44,021 nt of DNA from a virus. The notes beneath the pieces are model-generated. The model made no database searches. It was not told the origin of the DNA and saw only the letters and a program-made list of their open reading frames with translations. The translations under genes were made by a program, and so were the position numbers. The DNA is taken from the UHGV virus genome UHGV-0153635, one strand, 5' to 3'. Shown piece after piece: positions 28,919 through 35,385 of the stretch. Within the stretch, counting starts at the first letter, position 1. The number at the start of each line of letters is the position of its first letter.

Positions 28919-29287
28919 TTAGGATTTGTCCTGCTGCATCAGAAAAGCTATCATCCCTGCTCTTAAATGGTTAGTATCCTGTACTAGCACGTAATCTCCA
29001 TCTCCGTAAGGTGCTCTGGCTGTGTAGCAAACCCGTCCGCCTGAAGCCCCATCAGGACCGTAGTGTACTGTAATCTCTATACGGTTACGGTTTAGGATAC
29101 GCCATGCATCTGCTGGGTTGTTGCAGTAGTCCCGTGAGAAGCCGCCGTACCCATTGTCCATATAGACAACTGAGGAGTTCTGCGGGAAGGTTTTATTGTT
29201 GCATTCTGGTGATTTATTAATATCTGGCCAGAAAACATCGCTCACTCTTTTATTGATTTCAAAATCTGATAACTGTGAATAGTCCAT
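28919..29287 (-). CDS. hypothetical protein (~122 aa) in an AT-rich islet
   Basis: ATG 29287 with GAGAGG RBS, 10 nt after the RNAP stop; track start 29323 would overlap RNAP. Confidence 0.5.
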   Translation of the reverse strand: MDYSQLSDFEINKRVSDVFWPDINKSPECNNKTFPQNSSVVYMDNGYGGFSRDYCNNPADAWRILNRNRIEITVHYGPDGASGGRVCYTARAPYGDGDYVLVQDTNHLRAGMIAFLMQQDKS

Positions 29288-29297
29288 ATTATACCTC

Positions 29298-31739
29298 TCA
29301 ACAAAAGAAGAATGGGGATTCAAGTACTTGCGTTAAGTCCAGAGTGCCTTTCTGAGGCATCTCTAAACCTTCCAGGTCTGCGCCGCACTCTACCGCTGCG
29401 TCAGCCAGCGTTTGCAACGGGTCGTGCTCGGTGTACAAGCGCAGGAACTGCTCACGAATAGCTTTATGCATTGCGTCAACATCACAGGCATGCGTAGCCA
29501 GCGAGTCATGGATAGGCAGGATATCACCGTCGAAGGCGTTCAGTACCATCATCAGGTGCGTACTATCCAGCGAGTGCACGAAGTTCGGAGCGATACCAGA
29601 CTTAGCCTTACGGCGATTGTTCTGCTCGTAGTTACGGTTGTAACTGAGCAGGTACGTCAGGTTCATACTCTGAACTTTAACCCGGCACTCATCAGACTCT
29701 GTGTAGCGGTTAATGACCAACCCACCCAGCGGAGTCTTCCACTGTAAGTGCCGCTTAGTCGGGACACGTCCTGTAATCTGCTGAGCAAAGCGCATAGCCT
29801 TGGCAGCCGCAGGGTTAGCCTCCTCTACAGCAGCGCGCATACGCGGAGCTAAGTACCCTGCGAGCTTAAACAGGCTATACTCCTCAGTAGGCTCATAACC
29901 CTCATCCTTAGCACCCAGTAGGATGTACTCAGAGCAACTGCGTACAGTCGCAGAATACACATAGGTCATACAGGGGCGCTTGGTCATACTCCTAGTAATT
30001 GGGTTCTCTCTCCAGTACGTAGCCTGCACTACGTGCTCTGGGTCAGTGAGGTCCATGATTACCTTGGAGTCCGTGCGCTCCTTCACGTCCATGTACATAT
30101 CCGCTTTCTCTGCGTTACCCTCCCAGAACAGGTTCGTTAAGCGCCCACCGATTGGGTCCCGGAGCATTGCGCTGTAGTGCTGAGAACCCGAGTTTGTAGC
30201 GTCCATAGCGACTGGTACGTGCGATACATACTCTCGCGGCTCCACAGAGCTAAGAGCATTAACAAGCTCGACTGCTGCTGCCAGGAAGCACCATGGACTA
30301 TCTGCCTGTTTAAAAGCGTCCGAATTAAATGGGTCATCTGCCAGGCGTCTAATCGCTTCATAGTTCGCATCAGCCCAAGCTGCACGGGCTTCGAATAGGG
30401 CTTTGTCATAACCAAAGCAAGTGGCGACATGCACCTTGAGCCAAAATAATCCACGCTCCCCAAGCGGTTTTCCGCGACCAAATTCAAGCAAGGCCTTCTG
30501 CAAATCAGAACCTTGTGGGTGCAGGCTGGACTTGAAGTACAGGCGGTATCGCCAATCCACACAAGTCGGGAAGTACAGCTCTGTTTCATCTTTGAACTCC
30601 TCGCACATACTTACGGTTGTAACCAGGGCGCGAAGCTGCCCTACGCGAGTACGCTCATCCGCGTACCACTGGCGCATATGCATCTTCCACTCCTGGAACT
30701 CCTCAAGCTCACGCTCAGTGTACTCTTCCTTAGGCACACCATCCAAGCGCCACTCTGGTTTAGGGGCTGGGTTGCTGCTAGGCATGCCTGTGCTTACTCC
30801 CAAGGCACGCGCCTGCTGCACCAGCTTCAGCATAGTCTTATTAATACGGTACGGCACTTCCTGAGCACGATTCAGAGCCTGCTGTAACTGCGGAGCCTGC
30901 TTGAACGCCTCGGCTACTTCACGCTTCATGCTTCGCTGAATCTGTGAGTTGCTGTAAGTACCGCGTCTATCAATGTCCGTGAGGTATCCACCGGAGAACA
31001 TCGTATCATGCGGCTGCGGCGGGATAAGCATAGGTGGCTTCAGCTGCACTGTATCGGCGTGCTCTACCAGCTCAGACAGTACCTGCTCCAGCGCTGGGGC
31101 TGGGGTGAGATACTGCAACTGCGTCTTATCGCGCTTGCTCCACACGAACAGCCCGGTTTCCCACACCGCCTGCATCAAGAGCTTGCCCACGGAGATGCAC
31201 TGTGAGTTCGACCAAGGCTCATGCTGGTAATGCACGTTCTCAGCAGAGGCACGCAAGGTCTTCAGGATATGCGAGGGGCTGGTGGTATTACGTTCCTTCA
31301 GGTACTCATGCACCCGGTTCATATATGCCGGGGCTACAGCCTGGAGCTGCACAGCCAGTAGCTCCGCCTGAACCTGACGGCCCAGCGCAGAGAGCACGGA
31401 CTGTGCTGAGCTGGCACTGTTAGTGCCTACGTTAGAGAATAGCGAATCGAAGCACTTCGTCAAGGACATTACGGCCAGGACATCCGTAGGGATTAAGCGC
31501 AGGAACGCGCGGTACTTAGCGCCTACACCAGCAGTCTTCTCCTGCTTAGTGCTGTTGATGCCTGCGCATACAGTGTCGTATGCAGCCGCAATCATACGCT
31601 GCACTGGCGGCAAGGTGCTGAGGCTACCAGAGTCCAGGGCTTTCTGCACCAGGCTCTTGCTGCGCTCCAGGCTGCGTGTACGGTACTGCTGCTCTAGCTG
31701 GAGCTGTCGCTCTGTGCGTTCTTCTAAGGTTTCTTTCAA
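29298..31739 (-). CDS. single-subunit DNA-directed RNA polymerase (T7 RNAP family)
   Basis: 813 aa; SGSQHYSAMLRD, IAPNFVHSLDSTH, C-terminal ESPFFFC align with T7 RNAP motifs; TTG start with GAGGA RBS. Confidence 0.95.
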   Translation of the reverse strand: MKETLEERTERQLQLEQQYRTRSLERSKSLVQKALDSGSLSTLPPVQRMIAAAYDTVCAGINSTKQEKTAGVGAKYRAFLRLIPTDVLAVMSLTKCFDSLFSNVGTNSASSAQSVLSALGRQVQAELLAVQLQAVAPAYMNRVHEYLKERNTTSPSHILKTLRASAENVHYQHEPWSNSQCISVGKLLMQAVWETGLFVWSKRDKTQLQYLTPAPALEQVLSELVEHADTVQLKPPMLIPPQPHDTMFSGGYLTDIDRRGTYSNSQIQRSMKREVAEAFKQAPQLQQALNRAQEVPYRINKTMLKLVQQARALGVSTGMPSSNPAPKPEWRLDGVPKEEYTERELEEFQEWKMHMRQWYADERTRVGQLRALVTTVSMCEEFKDETELYFPTCVDWRYRLYFKSSLHPQGSDLQKALLEFGRGKPLGERGLFWLKVHVATCFGYDKALFEARAAWADANYEAIRRLADDPFNSDAFKQADSPWCFLAAAVELVNALSSVEPREYVSHVPVAMDATNSGSQHYSAMLRDPIGGRLTNLFWEGNAEKADMYMDVKERTDSKVIMDLTDPEHVVQATYWRENPITRSMTKRPCMTYVYSATVRSCSEYILLGAKDEGYEPTEEYSLFKLAGYLAPRMRAAVEEANPAAAKAMRFAQQITGRVPTKRHLQWKTPLGGLVINRYTESDECRVKVQSMNLTYLLSYNRNYEQNNRRKAKSGIAPNFVHSLDSTHLMMVLNAFDGDILPIHDSLATHACDVDAMHKAIREQFLRLYTEHDPLQTLADAAVECGADLEGLEMPQKGTLDLTQVLESPFFFC

Positions 31740-31782
31740 TTCGCTATCCTCTACGTTAATCTGGACGTTTCTGAGGTTATTA

Positions 31783-32448
31783 CTATCGGTTTGCTAAGTA
31801 AACTGCCTGCGCGAAGCCTCTCGGGGTAAGAGAGCGTAGCTGCTTAGTCTTAGGGGACTTACCGCCCAAGTAAGCCCAGCCCCAGAACTTGCCGATATGT
31901 GGCACAGGCTTCTTCTCAGGCATAATAAAACCGCCACCCACCCACAAGCAGGTCTTCTTAGTGTAAGCATCCTGAGCAGGCATACGCGGATGAAAGCTCT
32001 CTTCTTCCCCGGACATGTACCCGCCATACTCATATGGGTTAAAGTAATAGTCAGGCTTACGATATAGTGTAGATAACTTACCCACGGGGTTCTCAATCAT
32101 ATACCGGGCGTTGTAGTCCCGGGCTAGCTTAACAATCATCTTTGTATTAACCAGGGTAGCTAGCCCTGTGTGGTTATGTTTCGCCCCAGACACTGCAAAC
32201 TCTGTGCAATCTGGGAATGCAAAGATGATGTCTGGCGCTCCTAATCCTAAGCGGTATGCGAAGTCTTCAAAGTATTCATCAATCCAGCAGTTCACATAAG
32301 TTATATTCTCATGCTGGACCCGGATAGGTTCATAGCTTCCGTGGTTAGCATTCTCATAATTAAAGCAGTAGCACTTACAACCTGCATCAGCCCAAGGCTT
32401 AACCATAATGCCGGAACCGTCAAACATAGACCAGATAACTCTCTGCAT
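31783..32448 (-). CDS. compact DNA cytosine-C5 methyltransferase-like protein (221 aa)
   Basis: Ordered matches to C5-MTase motif I (MFDGSG), motif IV with catalytic Cys (FPDCTEFAVSG), motif VI (MIENPVG), C-terminal LTPR..AQAV resembling motifs IX/X; spacing of I-IV-VI similar to M.HhaI; ATG 32448 with AGGAGGG RBS. Confidence 0.5.
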   Translation of the reverse strand: MQRVIWSMFDGSGIMVKPWADAGCKCYCFNYENANHGSYEPIRVQHENITYVNCWIDEYFEDFAYRLGLGAPDIIFAFPDCTEFAVSGAKHNHTGLATLVNTKMIVKLARDYNARYMIENPVGKLSTLYRKPDYYFNPYEYGGYMSGEEESFHPRMPAQDAYTKKTCLWVGGGFIMPEKKPVPHIGKFWGWAYLGGKSPKTKQLRSLTPRGFAQAVYLANR

Positions 32449-32457
32449 AGCACCCTC

Positions 32458-32664
32458 CTAGATAGTGCAGCCGTCGCACGTACCATCGTCGTTGAGCTCG
32501 CAGGTGCTCTCTGTTTGGGCCTGCTCACGCTCTGCATTACGCGCTGCTACGGCATCTTCATCGAAGTCCAGGATGAACCCATCAAACTCATCCTTAGGCT
32601 CATCCTTAGGGCATGCCCCGATGCTGCAACGGTTAGTACAATCTGCTCCGCATTTACCTGTCAT
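32458..32664 (-). CDS. Cys-rich acidic mini-protein (68 aa), possible metal-binding
   Basis: C-x3-C-x3-C-x4-C-P near the N-terminus and C-x7-C-x2-C at the C-terminus; 9 nt upstream of the MTase-like gene. Confidence 0.45.
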   Translation of the reverse strand: MTGKCGADCTNRCSIGACPKDEPKDEFDGFILDFDEDAVAARNAEREQAQTESTCELNDDGTCDGCTI

Positions 32665-32823
32665 GCTATTCCCCTTTCTTAGTTTCTTGTTCGCGTCTTA
32701 CCCAAAGCTCGTGCATACCCAAATAAGCTTGTGCAGATGCAGCGTCACCGCGCCCCAGCGCTTCTTCGTAGCGTTCCCGGCACCATGCGCTAGGTGCCAG
32801 GGGTTCCTGTGTATTATCCAATA

Positions 32824-33075
32824 CTACCCCTTAACTTTGATTCCAGCTTCTTCTATACACTCTGCGCATAAATCTATAGCGTGCTGAGCAACCTCTGAAC
32901 TGTACATTCCAAACCCTTCTGTGGTTGTTGGTAGCTGCACTACAACAGCGTCACGCGAAGCCTGCCAACACTTGAAGTACGTACTTATAACTGAATTTTC
33001 AAAGTTGAGGCTACCTTTAACTGGGTCAACCTCTCTCTTGAACCACTTTTCAAACTGCTTTATTGATTCGTTCAA
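32824..33075 (-). CDS. hypothetical protein (83 aa)
   Basis: ORF track; TTG start with GGGAG RBS. Confidence 0.4.
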   Translation of the reverse strand: MNESIKQFEKWFKREVDPVKGSLNFENSVISTYFKCWQASRDAVVVQLPTTTEGFGMYSSEVAQHAIDLCAECIEEAGIKVKG

Positions 33076-33231
33076 TGCAAGGTCTCCCCGGCACTCTCTG
33101 AGTGCTCAATCAAGTAGAAGTCAATGTCCTTAGTAACGACACCCTCAAGGTATCCGACGTGCAGGAGGTTCTGCATGAACTCCTCCGCATCGTCCAGGTT
33201 ATCCGTATCCAGCTCAATCACTGCGGCAATC

Positions 33232-33669
33232 TTAGGCATTATCCTGCTCCAGTTCTATAGCGCGCTTAGCGCTCTCGTAGATGTTCTGGAGGTCCTCGGC
33301 AGCGTCTTTATGACCACGCTGCCCTACTGCCAGAGCCTTCTTGATGAGGTGCTGTAGTGCCGGGTTAACTACGGAGAAAGCACGCAGCACGTCATATACA
33401 TCCACAAACACCCCCGGCTTAATCTCCCGCAAGTACTTTACACCGTCCTGCGGCTGGCGCACCGGGTCAGACTTCGCTGCTTCAGCGGCAGGCTCTTCAT
33501 CCCAATCTATCAGCAGGGCGGAGAAGCCGTGCCAATGCTCGCATATAGAACCGTCCCAACACACACGGTAGCCACTGAAGGTCTCACCAATGATTGTTCC
33601 GGATAACCCCACATACCGACTATCACTACCTACATACTTTACGCGCCTACCAGTTGCAGTCTTACCCAT
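33232..33669 (-). CDS. hypothetical protein (145 aa)
   Basis: ORF track; ATG start. Confidence 0.5.
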   Translation of the reverse strand: MGKTATGRRVKYVGSDSRYVGLSGTIIGETFSGYRVCWDGSICEHWHGFSALLIDWDEEPAAEAAKSDPVRQPQDGVKYLREIKPGVFVDVYDVLRAFSVVNPALQHLIKKALAVGQRGHKDAAEDLQNIYESAKRAIELEQDNA

Positions 33670-34090
33670 TCTTAATTACCTCCCGTGCTTTCCTCTGTGC
33701 CCGCACCCTACGGCGCTTAGCGTTCTGTGCTGCCTTAGCTTCTTCCTCGGTCTTCCAGGAGTAGTACAGCAGCTGCGTTGGTTCCCGGTCTAGATAGTCA
33801 GCCACCCGGCGTAGAGCAGCAGCGATAGCAGCGCTAGACTGCATACTCCCAACAATCCAACGCCCAGCGGCTGATGCCACTTTGCCTTCTCCACCGTTAC
33901 AAGAGCGGTGCAAAGCCCCGCGAATACGCCCAGTTATATGGCAATGGTCAACCACAACAGAGTCACCTTTAACCCCCTTGATTGAGAAGTCCAGAGCACC
34001 TCCACAGAGCAGGCACACCCCGCCCTGCTCCTTCGCCAGCTTCATAGCTACGCTGCGGATTTGCCCGCGCGTAATCTTGCGTAGAATCAT
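33662..34090 (-). CDS. endonuclease VII-type Holliday-junction resolvase
   Basis: CLLCGG...VVDHCHITGRIRGALHRSCNGGEGK matches the T4 endo VII zinc/HNH-like core. Confidence 0.8.
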   Translation of the reverse strand: MILRKITRGQIRSVAMKLAKEQGGVCLLCGGALDFSIKGVKGDSVVVDHCHITGRIRGALHRSCNGGEGKVASAAGRWIVGSMQSSAAIAAALRRVADYLDREPTQLLYYSWKTEEEAKAAQNAKRRRVRAQRKAREVIKNG

Positions 34091-34287
34091 TCCCGCACCA
34101 CCTTGAAACTGCGGAAGTAGTCCGACATGGAGTAGCTACTAGAGGTATGGCGGACCCCAGGGTTCGGTGCTAAGACGAATGTATAACCATCTTCTGACAC
34201 ATACTCTACGGTGTACTTATTACCTGTGTGAATACTCTGTATAATATCCCCAACTTCTAACCTCATAACCCAATCTCCTCTAAGCAA
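34087..34287 (-). CDS. hypothetical protein (66 aa)
   Basis: ORF track. Confidence 0.4.
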   Translation of the reverse strand: MLRGDWVMRLEVGDIIQSIHTGNKYTVEYVSEDGYTFVLAPNPGVRHTSSSYSMSDYFRSFKVVRE

Positions 34288-34460
34288 TCCAGGTCATGCT
34301 GCTCGTGAATCGCAGCAGCCATAGCTTTAGCAAGCTCTCGATGCTGCTCGGGGTACTGCTCTGCCATTGCAAGCATAAGCAGTTCCAGCTTAATGAATTC
34401 GTCTGCATAGAATAACTCCCAGGCCTTAAGGCGCATCTGCTTCATTGATTGTTTCTTCAT
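34263..34460 (-). CDS. hypothetical protein (65 aa)
   Basis: ORF track. Confidence 0.4.
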   Translation of the reverse strand: MKKQSMKQMRLKAWELFYADEFIKLELLMLAMAEQYPEQHRELAKAMAAAIHEQHDLDCLEEIGL

Positions 34461-35385
34461 TACCCTGCTCCAGAATATAGGTTCGGTACTGCTTGTGATA
34501 GTCCCTGAGCTGGGTTAACCAGCTCCTGTATTCTGGAGTAGTTACCAAAGACATCAGGTACTCATACGCTGAATCCTGTTCGTGCCTTCTCAGCCAGAGT
34601 GCTTCTGCTTCCGCCAGTACATCCTGCCCTATGGCTGCGTAGGCTCCTAGGACACGCTCTGCGGCCTCCTCTGCTGAGGCAATAGGGTTGATTACCTCGA
34701 AGGCTTTCGTAGCCCCACAGAGCTTCCCATTGAGCCTGAGGATGCCTTTGATGTTGTCTGCTGCATCACCAGCCAGTAACTGCGCGAAGAAGAACTTTGT
34801 TCCCTGCCCGACTATTGGGAATGAGTGTGATTCGTCCCACGCGATGTAGCCATACGGGTCAGATACTCCCTCCAAGGTATGTCCTGCTGGCATCTCAAGT
34901 CTGGCGTATGGTGATAATCGAAGGTCCTTATCGCCGGAGCTGATGATACAGCGTTCCCTAAAGCGATATGAATCCATAACGATAAGGTCGTCCGCTTCAT
35001 ATTCATAGCTCCCCAGCACCTCTATACCGTGCTGACTGTACTCATTAGGATTGCTCAGCAGGTGCCGCTTCAGCGGCTGCTTGAGAGGTAGCTCCGGGCG
35101 CGCAGTACGTTGCGCCTGGTAAGGTCGTACAGTCGGTAGCAGGTATCTACCGCACTTAGCACAACCAGTAGGAGTAAGATACACCAGACACTCTTTGACG
35201 TTAGCATAGAAACATTGCTCCAATACCCATGTGTAGAACCTGCGTATGGCCGTATCTAAGCGCTTGCAGGTTGCAGCCGCAGCATACACCCCGAAGTCGC
35301 CATCCAGCAGCAGAATCTTGTCTGATACAGCAGGGGCCTGCAACTGCTCAGGCAGGCCCGATAAGTCGATGCCCCGTATCTGCAT
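34426..35385 (-). CDS. 5'-3' exonuclease (T7 gp6 / FEN family)
   Basis: KILLLDGDFGVYAAAA and CIISSGDKDLRLSP parallel T7 gp6 motifs. Confidence 0.85.
   Translation of the reverse strand: MQIRGIDLSGLPEQLQAPAVSDKILLLDGDFGVYAAAATCKRLDTAIRRFYTWVLEQCFYANVKECLVYLTPTGCAKCGRYLLPTVRPYQAQRTARPELPLKQPLKRHLLSNPNEYSQHGIEVLGSYEYEADDLIVMDSYRFRERCIISSGDKDLRLSPYARLEMPAGHTLEGVSDPYGYIAWDESHSFPIVGQGTKFFFAQLLAGDAADNIKGILRLNGKLCGATKAFEVINPIASAEEAAERVLGAYAAIGQDVLAEAEALWLRRHEQDSAYEYLMSLVTTPEYRSWLTQLRDYHKQYRTYILEQGNEETINEADAP

What the first reader, a model, noticed from the sequence alone, without database searches (positions are those of the whole stretch)
31783..32664. Candidate DNA-modification module: compact cytosine-C5 methyltransferase-like protein with a Cys-rich mini-protein, directly upstream of the RNAP gene
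The 221-aa protein carries MFDGSG (motif I), FPDCTEFAVSG (motif IV, catalytic Cys), MIENPVG (motif VI) and a C-terminal LTPR..AQAV (compressed IX/X), in the canonical order and with M.HhaI-like spacing between I, IV and VI. It is about 100 aa shorter than typical enzymes, implying a minimal target-recognition domain. The adjacent 68-aa acidic protein has seven Cys in two clusters. If active, this pair could methylate or otherwise modify phage cytosines, for anti-restriction or marking.
Basis: partly seen in the sequence, partly recalled or inferred. Interest (0 to 1): 0.7.

Follow-up and report, generated by a model that had tools for sequence, protein, structure and literature searches.

The report
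Compact orphan phage cytosine-C5 DNA methyltransferase
The 221-aa gene is a real but already-recognised kind of very small phage DNA cytosine methyltransferase sitting in a swappable slot in front of the phage RNA polymerase gene, and the neighbouring cysteine-rich mini-protein is an unrelated genus-specific gene, not its partner.

Summary
Both ORFs exist exactly as described: 31783-32448(-), 221 aa, and 32458-32664(-), 68 aa with 7 Cys, directly upstream of a T7-type RNAP. The window is a Koutsourovirus-like Autographiviridae phage.

A 49%-identical relative, phage K42/KarlJaspers-type 'Dcm' (236 aa; C82/E128/K175/K176), has published 5mC-forming activity and triggers retron Ec86. Relatives already annotate this gene as a DNA cytosine methyltransferase.

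The 'module' idea fails:
- The Cys-rich gene occurs in only 6 phage records.
- Two of those genomes (KKP 3828, Entb_48) have it next to RNAP with no methyltransferase anywhere.
- The methyltransferase diverges far more than its neighbours (dS 1.69 vs 0.43).

Verdict: an orphan C5 DNA methyltransferase cassette, a new member of a known kind, of low interest. Its target sequence and the function of the Cys-rich protein remain unknown.

The parts
31783..32448 (-). Gene for a 221-aa compact orphan C5-cytosine DNA methyltransferase-like protein (phrog_757 family), pI 8.6
32410..32424 (-). Codons for residues 9-13, FDGSG: motif I-like AdoMet-binding loop after strand beta-1
   Evidence: Position. 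D10, G11, S12 and G13 are invariant among 36 close homologues. The broader family consensus is FDxTG. The AF2 model has strand 4-8 followed by a loop.
32203..32217 (-). Codons for residues 78-82, FPDCT: motif IV with the putative catalytic Cys81 (codon 32206-32208)
   Evidence: C81 is invariant in 91 diverse members and the family consensus is FPPCT. hhalign and a DNMT2 alignment place this Cys on the PC Cys of Dcm/DNMT2, but at non-significant E-values. It is equivalent to C82 of the K42 Dcm, one of four residues replaced together in the inactive mutant.
32080..32094 (-). Codons for residues 119-123, ENPVG: motif VI (ENV-like) with Glu119
   Evidence: E119 and P121 are invariant and N120 is >=90% conserved in 91 members. 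It is aligned with Dcm ENV by hhalign at E 0.2. It is equivalent to E128 of the K42 Dcm.
31948..31962 (-). Codons for residues 163-167, TKKTC: replaces motif VIII (QxRxR) at the start of a beta strand. K164/K165 are probable cytosine/phosphate contacts.
   Evidence: Y162, K164 and W169 are invariant and T166 is >=90% conserved. AF2 strand 166-171. Equivalent to K175/K176 of the K42 Dcm.
31801..31836 (-). Codons for residues 205-216, RSLTPRGFAQAV: motif IX-like segment and C-terminal helix. No recognisable motif X (GNAV) follows.
   Evidence: R205, S206, P209, G211 and A215 are >=90% conserved. There is a visual match to Dcm 'RRLTPRECARLM'. It is not supported statistically.
32458..32664 (-). 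Gene for a 68-aa acidic Cys-rich protein (Cx3Cx3Cx4CP ... Cx7Cx2C). It is genus-specific, of unknown function, and not a dedicated partner of the methyltransferase.
   Evidence: ORF. pI 4.05 and 7 Cys. 17 homologues with an invariant N-terminal KCGA.CTNRCS.G.CP. Found in only 6 phage records. Present without the MTase in KKP 3828 and Entb_48. AF2 model unusable, pLDDT 46.6. No Pfam, PHROG, NCBIfam or PADLOC hit.
31740..31782 (-). Conserved junction immediately upstream of the RNAP start codon. It is the right-hand boundary of the variable cargo slot that holds the methyltransferase.
   Evidence: From about 40 nt upstream of the RNAP start the five-phage alignment is nearly identical, whether the slot holds an MTase allele, an unrelated 65-aa ORF, or nothing. 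Upstream of that the sequences differ by cargo.
29298..31739 (-). T7-type single-subunit RNA polymerase gene (context)
   Evidence: PF00940 E 2.4e-90 and phrog_414 E 1.3e-267. 94-97% identical to the RNAPs of Koutsourovirus phages.

Best explanation
The 221-aa protein is a solitary (orphan) phage DNA cytosine-C5 methyltransferase of a compact, divergent family.

Proposed mechanism, by analogy with established C5-MTase chemistry:
- The target cytosine is flipped out of the helix.
- The Cys81 thiolate attacks C6.
- Glu119 protonates N3.
- Lys164/Lys165 take the place of the motif VIII arginines.
- The methyl group of AdoMet is transferred to C5.

Only about 35 residues lie between the motif VIII-like strand and the C-terminal motif IX-like helix. 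DNA recognition must therefore rest on a minimal target-recognition region.

The gene is co-transcribed with the DNA-metabolism genes just before the RNAP gene, so the enzyme would methylate replicating phage DNA. The most likely benefit is protection from host restriction endonucleases. The likely costs are exposure to 5mC-dependent defences: retron Eco1/Ec86 is documented for a homologue, and type IV enzymes are inferred. That trade-off would fit the gene's behaviour as a dispensable, exchangeable cassette within the genus.

The adjacent Cys-rich gene is an independent, genus-specific small acidic protein, probably metal-binding, of unknown role.

Shown: fold class, residue conservation, homology to an experimentally active enzyme, orphan status, and cassette-like distribution. 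Inferred: activity of this particular protein, its target sequence, and anti-restriction as the selective benefit.
For: Family and fold:
- phrog_757 'DNA methyltransferase', E 8.7e-79.
- AF2 model pLDDT 79, pTM 0.81.
- Foldseek against the PDB is topped by DNMT3B, E 7e-5.
- BFVD neighbours are annotated as cytosine methylases.

Conservation:
- C81, E119 and K164 are invariant in 91 members at 30-58% identity.
- PF00145 is the only Pfam family hit recurrently by family members, though only 8 of 91 and always below threshold.

Experimental link:
- The phage K42 'Dcm' is a 711-bp gene. Its quadruple mutant C82A/E128A/K175A/K176A lost the 5mC signal on msDNA seen with wild type by LC-MS, and the protein triggers retron Ec86.
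- Damhaus and KarlJaspers carry a 711-bp homologue. The damhaus protein has exactly C82, E128, K175 and K176 and is 49% identical to the window protein, E 3e-74.

Orphan status and mobility:
- No nuclease partner in the window, or in a prophage copy.
- The cassette is absent from KKP 3828 and Entb_48.
- phiKDA1's allele is only 51% identical while its RNAP is 94% identical.
- dS is 1.69 for the MTase against 0.43 for the neighbouring gene.
- Strong RBS (AGGAGG) and dN/dS 0.09.
Against: - There is no significant sequence match to canonical C5-MTases: Pfam none at E<=1, PDB phmmer and profile searches none, and hhalign against Dcm E 0.2.
- The window protein has Asp, not Pro, before the catalytic Cys, and Asn30 where most of the family has the motif II acidic residue.
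- No motif X is recognisable.
- The activity of this protein was not measured.
- The K42 enzyme's CCWGG specificity was assumed rather than determined.
- Site-frequency analysis gives no hint of a protected site: CCWGG is 147 observed vs 162 expected, similar in MTase-plus and MTase-minus relatives.
- The BASEL study found no simple link between such MTase genes and restriction resistance.
Confidence: 0.75

Rival explanations
1. One reading: the methyltransferase and the Cys-rich mini-protein form a two-component DNA-modification module, with the Cys-rich protein acting as a specificity, metal-binding or activating subunit.
For: The genes are adjacent with a 9-nt gap, and the Cys-rich stop codon lies inside the MTase ribosome-binding site. 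The MTase lacks a normal target-recognition domain. The pair is conserved in EhYP, Pec and phiKDA1.
Against: - The MTase family is in 1,496 phage records without this partner, while the Cys-rich protein is in only 6.
- KKP 3828 and Entb_48 keep the Cys-rich gene next to RNAP with no MTase anywhere in the genome.
- A homologue expressed on its own from a plasmid methylated msDNA in E. coli.
- The two genes have different divergence depths between the same two genomes, dS 0.43 vs 1.69.
- Tight spacing is the rule in this genome.
Confidence: 0.05
2. The protein has the C5-MTase fold but transfers a different group or acts on a different substrate. Examples are carboxymethyl from Cx-SAM as in CmoX, or RNA/tRNA as in Dnmt2. 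Alternatively it is catalytically dead and acts only by binding.
For: - Enterobacterial hosts make Cx-SAM, and CmoX can use host Cx-SAM.
- Motif IV is unusual (P-D-C), N30 replaces the usual acidic residue, and motif X is missing.
- The K42 LC-MS assay was targeted at 5mC only.
Against: - The K42 homologue raised 5mC levels in a way that depended on the four-residue active-site mutant.
- The K42-type protein also has Asn at the motif II position, so that substitution is compatible with activity.
- CmoX is defined by an SPPC motif, Arg350 and a linked CmoA/ligase. The related phiKDA1 genome annotates no CmoA, ligase or other modification genes.
- Strong purifying selection and invariant C81/E119/K164 argue against a dead enzyme.
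Confidence: 0.07
3. It is an active DNA C5-methyltransferase, but its main role is not anti-restriction. It could be regulatory or epigenetic, for example marking phage DNA for replication, packaging or transcription timing, or modifying host DNA during takeover.
For: - It lies directly upstream of the RNAP at the middle/late boundary.
- BASEL found no simple correlation between these MTases and restriction resistance.
- Expression of the homologue was reported as probably somewhat toxic in E. coli.
- Copies sit in prophage early operons.
Against: - The gene is dispensable within the genus. MTase-minus relatives have RNAPs 95-97% identical to the window's, which argues against an essential developmental role.
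- Different alleles occupy the same slot.
- Patchy, cassette-like distribution is typical of accessory defence/counter-defence genes (inference).
Confidence: 0.1
4. It is the modification half of a restriction-modification system carried by the phage.
For: Many C5-MTases belong to type II R-M systems (general knowledge).
Against: No nuclease gene is adjacent. The neighbours are RNAP and small ORFs. The endonuclease VII gene 1.2 kb away is a standard Autographiviridae recombination/resolution gene. A prophage copy also lacks a nuclease neighbour.
Confidence: 0.01

Closest known systems
Phage K42 / KarlJaspers (Bas06)-type 'Dcm-like C5 cytosine methyltransferase' (236 aa), the trigger of retron Ec86/Eco1 (bioRxiv 10.1101/2023.08.16.553469)
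   Same: Same family. The damhaus orthologue is 49% identical over the full length, E 3e-74. It has the same catalytic set: C82/E128/K175/K176 correspond to C81/E119/K164/K165. It is similarly small, lacks a canonical TRD and has the same C-terminal RSLTPRGFA.AV. It is also an orphan.
   Different: It comes from a different phage family (Drexlerviridae siphoviruses vs an Autographiviridae podovirus). The K42-type protein has canonical P-P-C whereas the window has P-D-C. The segment 172-200, the likely DNA-recognition region, is not conserved between them, so target specificity may differ. Activity is shown only for K42.
Canonical bacterial C5-cytosine DNA methyltransferases (Pfam PF00145; M.HhaI, M.HaeIII, E. 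coli Dcm)
   Different: - About 100-250 aa shorter.
- No PF00145 match, even at E<=1.
- Motif VIII QxRxR is replaced by TKKT.
- The TRD is reduced to about 35 residues.
- Motif X is not recognisable.
- No N-terminal Dcm domain (PF18284) and no Vsr partner.
DNMT3A/DNMT3B catalytic domains
   Different: Sequence identity is 10-15%. DNMT3 enzymes are eukaryotic, multidomain, and work as DNMT3L-assisted oligomers. Whether the phage enzyme also oligomerises to extend its DNA-binding surface is untested.
CmoX, phage DNA cytosine C5-carboxymethyltransferase (PDB 8yf3; PMC12783734)
   Different: CmoX is 333 aa, carries SPPC and Arg350 for the carboxyl group, and is linked to CmoA and an amide ligase. 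None of these features is seen here or annotated in phiKDA1.

Membership tests
C5-cytosine DNA methyltransferases (PF00145 / M.HhaI-type) | Class-I AdoMet-MTase fold in the C5-MTase-specific arrangement | tested here: met
C5-cytosine DNA methyltransferases (PF00145 / M.HhaI-type) | Significant sequence match to the family profile (Pfam gathering threshold) | tested here: not met
   No PF00145 hit for this protein at E<=1. Only 8 of 91 diverse family members hit it, and all are below threshold, best E 0.0039. PDB sequence and profile searches give no MTase at E<0.4. hhalign against Dcm gives E 0.2.
C5-cytosine DNA methyltransferases (PF00145 / M.HhaI-type) | Motif IV Pro-Cys dipeptide with the catalytic Cys | tested here: inconclusive
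   Cys81 is invariant in 91 members and the family consensus is FPPCT. It is aligned to the PC Cys of Dcm and DNMT2 only at non-significant E-values. The window protein itself reads P-D-C, so the Pro directly before the Cys is lost.
C5-cytosine DNA methyltransferases (PF00145 / M.HhaI-type) | Motif VI Glu-Asn-Val | tested here: met
   The window has E119-N120-P121-V122. E119 is invariant and N120 is >=90% conserved. It is placed in register with Dcm ENV.
C5-cytosine DNA methyltransferases (PF00145 / M.HhaI-type) | Motif I FxGxG AdoMet loop and motif II acidic residue | tested here: inconclusive
   FDGSG is present at residues 9-13. Position 30 is Asp in >=90% of the wider family but Asn in the window's subfamily. 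The K42-type protein, whose orthologue is active, also has Asn there. AdoMet binding was not modelled.
C5-cytosine DNA methyltransferases (PF00145 / M.HhaI-type) | Motif VIII QxRxR, a sizeable TRD, then motifs IX and X | tested here: not met
   TKKT replaces QxRxR, with K164 invariant. Only about 35 residues separate it from the C-terminal RSLTPRGFAQAV. The protein ends 5 residues later with no GNAV-type motif. A profile of the C-terminal segment finds no C5-MTase.
C5-cytosine DNA methyltransferases (PF00145 / M.HhaI-type) | Formation of 5-methylcytosine in DNA | not testable with these tools
   5mC formation is reported for the homologous K42 Dcm by LC-MS, and is lost in the mutant with four active-site substitutions. 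The window protein is 49% identical to the damhaus orthologue of that enzyme.
phrog_757 / short phage 'Dcm-like' methyltransferase family | Full-length profile match, 200-260 aa length, conserved FPxCT / ENPVG / YTKxTC.W / RSxTPRGFA.AV | tested here: met
   phrog_757 E 8.7e-79 over residues 1-220. 745 homologues, and 1,801 clusters that are nearly all 200-260 aa. All consensus blocks are present.
Type II restriction-modification system | Cognate restriction endonuclease gene linked to the methyltransferase | tested here: not met
   The neighbours are RNAP, the Cys-rich ORF and small PHROG 'unknown' ORFs. A prophage copy also has no nuclease neighbour.
   1,496 phage records carry the MTase against 6 with the Cys-rich gene. 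KKP 3828 and Entb_48 have the Cys-rich gene but no MTase in the whole genome.
CmoX-type C5-carboxymethyltransferase | SPPC motif, Arg350 carboxyl contact, linkage to CmoA and amide ligase | tested here: not met
   Motif IV here is FPDCT. No CmoA or ligase is annotated in the closely related phiKDA1 genome. The defining criteria come from PMC12783734. The Arg350 equivalent could not be assessed.

The most novel reading that the evidence does not exclude
This family lacks a normal target-recognition domain and a recognisable motif X. The window enzyme might therefore recognise a very short or degenerate site, or act on single-stranded or hairpin DNA, as the K42 enzyme does on retron msDNA. That would give dense 5mC across the phage genome from one of the smallest C5-methyltransferases known. 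In Koutsouroviruses, the invariant Cx3Cx3Cx4CP mini-protein might additionally be a metal-binding modulator of it. Neither point is excluded by my data, but the distribution data argue against the second.
Probability: 0.12. Interest if true: 0.5.

Novelty: new member of a known kind. Interest (0 to 1): 0.2.

Why it matters
For this window it mostly tidies the annotation. The gene is an orphan cytosine methyltransferase cassette, as relatives already annotate it, and the neighbouring Cys-rich gene should not be read as its partner.

Three points have modest wider value:
- Pfam and NCBIfam did not match this protein, and Pfam matched only 8 of 91 family members, all below threshold. Yet the family is present in about 3% of sequenced phages, so it is easy to miss in automated screens.
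- One member is a documented trigger of retron Eco1. MTase-plus and MTase-minus Koutsouroviruses with 95-97% identical RNAPs therefore form a natural pair for testing the cost and benefit of phage 5mC against restriction, type IV enzymes and retrons.
- At about 220 aa it is a minimal scaffold whose sequence specificity is still undetermined.

Tried and rejected
Searches that found nothing useful:
- Pfam, NCBIfam and PADLOC scans of both proteins gave nothing.
- PDB sequence searches found no methyltransferase at a meaningful E-value. These used the single protein, a 36-sequence profile and a 91-sequence profile. The best hits were GyrB, E 0.43, and DNMT2, E 0.44, aligned over motifs I-IV.
- hhalign of the family against an alignment of Dcm orthologues gave E 0.2. 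It aligned only motifs IV-VI. The Dcm alignment was of low diversity because the homologue search returned only orthologues >=74% identical.
- A profile of the C-terminal 36-60 residues, built to test the motif IX resemblance, returned no C5-MTase.

Structure attempts:
- AF2 on the Cys-rich protein with 18 sequences gave pLDDT 46.6, which is unusable, so no fold search was run on it.
- The afdb50 fold library was unavailable.

Other analyses:
- Restriction-site statistics with a Markov expectation for 22 sites, compared between MTase-plus and MTase-minus genomes, showed no cytosine-containing site that tracks the MTase.
- The sigma-70 promoter and terminator scan of 29000-34500 found nothing above shuffled expectation.
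- Literature searches for Koutsourovirus methyltransferase and for phage orphan 5mC methylomes gave nothing specific to this family beyond the retron Ec86 and BASEL papers.

Ideas considered and rejected: an R-M system (no nuclease), and a CmoX-type carboxymethylase (no SPPC motif or CmoA context).
Full report
**1. What is in the sequence**

The minus strand carries a 221-aa ORF at 31783-32448 and a 68-aa ORF at 32458-32664, separated by 9 nt. A further 43 nt downstream of the 221-aa ORF lies an 813-aa T7-type RNA polymerase gene at 29298-31739 (PF00940, E 2.4e-90).

- FDGSG at residues 9-13
- FPDCT at 78-82
- ENPVG at 119-123
- TKKTC at 163-167
- LTPRGF/AQAV at 207-216

The mini-protein is acidic (pI 4.05). 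Its Cys residues are at 5, 9, 13, 18 and at 55, 63, 66. The 221-aa gene has a strong AGGAGG ribosome-binding site that overlaps the stop codon of the Cys-rich gene.

Both genes are under purifying selection against phage SDFMU_EhYP, with dN/dS 0.09 and 0.10. The RNAP gives 0.08 against phiKDA1.

**2. Where the window comes from**

The region is 86-93% identical at the DNA level to Enterobacter phages SDFMU_EhYP, SDFMU_Pec and phiKDA1. These are genus Koutsourovirus, Slopekvirinae, Autographiviridae. In these records the orthologous gene is already annotated 'DNA cytosine methyltransferase' or 'putative DNA methylase'.

The phiKDA1 genome annotation shows an ordinary KP34/phiKMV-like gene set. 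It has no other DNA-modification genes and no restriction nuclease.

**3. Is the 221-aa protein a C5-methyltransferase?**

Sequence evidence against canonical enzymes is weak:
- Pfam gives no hit even at E<=1, and NCBIfam and PADLOC give none.
- phmmer and two profile searches of the PDB find no methyltransferase at a useful E-value.
- hhalign against a Dcm alignment gives only E 0.2.

The weak alignments that do appear are consistent with one another:
- They place FPxC81T on the PC motif and E119-N120 on ENV.
- PF00145 is the only Pfam family hit recurrently when 91 diverse family members are scanned, though by only 8 members and always below threshold.

Family-level evidence is strong:
- The protein matches phrog_757 'DNA methyltransferase' at E 8.7e-79.
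- It has 745 homologues in one search and 1,801 clusters at 50% identity in an exhaustive search, nearly all 200-260 aa.
- In 91 members at 30-58% identity the invariant residues are C81, E119, P121, P138, Y162, K164, W169 and P177.

Structural evidence is clear:
- The AF2 model has pLDDT 79 and pTM 0.81.
- Generic class-I methyltransferases align only about 125-140 residues.
- Foldseek agrees, with DNMT3B at E 7e-5.
- BFVD neighbours are phage 'DNA-cytosine methylases'.

**4. Experimental anchor**

A preprint on retron Ec86 (10.1101/2023.08.16.553469) isolated escape mutants of phage K42, which is 95% similar to KarlJaspers/Bas06. All of them disrupt a 711-bp 'dcm' gene.
- The authors located C82, E128, K175 and K176 by AF2 superposition on DNMT3A.
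- LC-MS showed that the wild-type protein, but not the quadruple mutant, raises 5mC on msDNA.

KarlJaspers and damhaus carry a 711-bp gene of this family. The damhaus protein has exactly C82, E128, K175 and K176. It is 49% identical to the window protein over its full length, E 3e-74.

The window equivalents are C81, E119, K164 and K165. The family therefore includes an enzyme with demonstrated cytosine-C5 methylation.

The CCWGG specificity quoted there was taken over from host Dcm and supported only indirectly. The target site of the family, and of this protein, is open.

**5. How it differs from canonical enzymes**

- The protein is about 100 aa shorter than M.HhaI.
- Motif VIII QxRxR is replaced by TKKT.
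- Only about 35 residues separate that strand from the C-terminal RSLTPRGFAQAV.
- That C-terminal segment looks like motif IX of Dcm (RRLTPRECARLM). A profile of the segment finds no C5-MTase.
- No GNAV-type motif X follows.
- The window's subfamily also has P-D-C instead of the family's P-P-C, and Asn30 instead of the usual acidic residue. The K42-type protein shares the Asn.

I therefore file it as a member of the short phage 'Dcm-like' family. It works like a C5-MTase but does not meet several formal PF00145 features.

**6. The 'module' with the Cys-rich protein**

This part fails on several counts:
- tblastn finds the methyltransferase family in 1,496 of 50,697 phage records. They span Drexlerviridae, Dhillonvirus, Vequintavirinae, phapecoctaviruses, many ~49-kb Klebsiella phages, and Campylobacter and Arthrobacter phages.
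- The Cys-rich protein is in 6 records, all relatives of phiKDA1, and has only 17 homologues in the metagenome-scale database.
- Salmonella phage KKP 3828 and Enterobacter phage Entb_48 carry the Cys-rich gene immediately before the RNAP. In KKP 3828 an unrelated 65-aa hydrophobic ORF sits between them. In Entb_48 there is nothing.
- A whole-genome tblastn finds no methyltransferase anywhere in either genome.
- About 40 nt upstream of the RNAP start is conserved in all five phages. Sequence upstream of that differs by cargo, which defines a variable slot.
- The slot holds different alleles. phiKDA1's methyltransferase is only 51% identical to the window's, while the RNAPs are 94% identical.
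- Between the window and EhYP the methyltransferase has dS 1.69 against 0.43 for the adjacent Cys-rich gene.
- A chromosomal copy of the methyltransferase sits in a lambdoid prophage early region, again without this partner and without a nuclease.

The Cys-rich protein itself has an invariant N-terminal K-C-G-A-x-C-T-N-R-C-S-x-G-x-C-P and a C-terminal Cx7CxxC. It matches no family and could not be modelled, pLDDT 46.6. Its function is unknown. A small, metal-binding, acidic host-interaction protein is a guess.

**7. Most likely function**

An orphan C5 DNA methyltransferase, expressed with the DNA-metabolism genes, methylates replicating phage DNA.
- Protection from host restriction is the most likely benefit (inference).
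- A documented cost is activation of retron Eco1 by a homologue.
- Sensitivity to 5mC-dependent type IV enzymes is expected from general knowledge.
- This trade-off would explain the patchy, cassette-like distribution.

Site statistics give no hint of the target. CCWGG is 147 observed vs 162 expected, and no cytosine-containing site differs between MTase-plus and MTase-minus genomes. The BASEL study likewise found no simple link between such genes and restriction phenotypes.

**8. Rivals**

- A carboxymethyl- or other alkyl-transferase, or an RNA enzyme, is unlikely. The K42 homologue makes 5mC, there is no CmoX signature or CmoA context, and Dnmt2 scores lower than the DNA enzymes.
- A regulatory role is possible but disfavoured, because the gene is dispensable within the genus.
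- An R-M system is excluded by gene content.

**9. Verdict**

Relatives already annotate the gene this way, and a published homologue supports the activity. The two-gene module is not supported. This is a new member of a known kind, of low interest. The undetermined specificity of a minimal C5-MTase and the unexplained Cys-rich protein are the only open questions.

Noticed in passing
whole window (1-44021); also L007, L008, L009: GATC is almost absent: 7 sites observed vs about 137 expected from a Markov model (ratio 0.05). GAGCTC is 1 vs 12.8. The same holds in phiKDA1, KKP 3828 and Entb_48 regardless of whether they carry the methyltransferase. This looks like classic restriction or Dam/MutH-site avoidance and is unrelated to the C5-MTase.
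   Followed up: partly
window 31740-31785 (-); L001-L004 equivalents: A stretch of about 40-45 nt immediately upstream of the RNAP start codon (TAACCTCAGAAACGTCCAGATTAACGTAGAGGATAGCGAA-TTG) is nearly invariant in five phages, although the sequence just upstream of it is cargo-dependent. It could be a regulatory element or a recombination boundary for the variable slot. The RNAP ORF appears to start with TTG.
   Followed up: partly
L003:2707-2904 (Salmonella phage KKP 3828): In the slot occupied by the methyltransferase in the window, KKP 3828 carries an unrelated 65-aa hydrophobic, basic ORF (MFWYNIKTCALVVLLSAPLWPFTVLWY...). In Entb_48 the slot is empty.
   Followed up: partly
window 32458-32664 (-) and homologues P0131-P0133, P0135; L002:4474-4752: The Cys-rich protein has an invariant N-terminal Cx3Cx3Cx4CP block. 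This spacing is reminiscent of, but different from, ferredoxin CxxCxxCxxxCP. Right after it there is a variable insertion of about 14-29 residues in phiKDA1-like homologues. The metal or cluster type is unknown.
   Followed up: partly
window 31783-32448 vs 32458-32664, compared with L001: Between the same two phage genomes the methyltransferase gene has saturated synonymous divergence (dS 1.69), while the adjacent Cys-rich gene has dS 0.43. phiKDA1's MTase allele is only 51% identical, although its RNAP is 94% identical. This is evidence of allele replacement by recombination at this locus.
   Followed up: yes
BFVD hits A0A6J5SE15 and A0A6J5NPY6, not in the window: In uncultured Caudovirales phages a domain resembling this short methyltransferase (22-27% identity, TM about 0.6) lies within proteins of 1,126-1,397 aa. 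One of them is annotated helicase/UvrB N-terminal and the other is uncharacterized. This suggests MTase fusions built on the same compact scaffold.
   Followed up: no
window 33232-33669 (-) and 33662-34090 (-): Upstream neighbours are a 145-aa protein and an endonuclease VII. The C-terminal half of the 145-aa protein matches several PHROGs of unknown function (phrog_2452, E 2.3e-29). At a similar position phiKDA1 annotates a T7 gp1.7-like nucleotide kinase. The endonuclease VII matches PF02945, E 5.2e-12. These are ordinary Autographiviridae DNA-metabolism genes.
   Followed up: no
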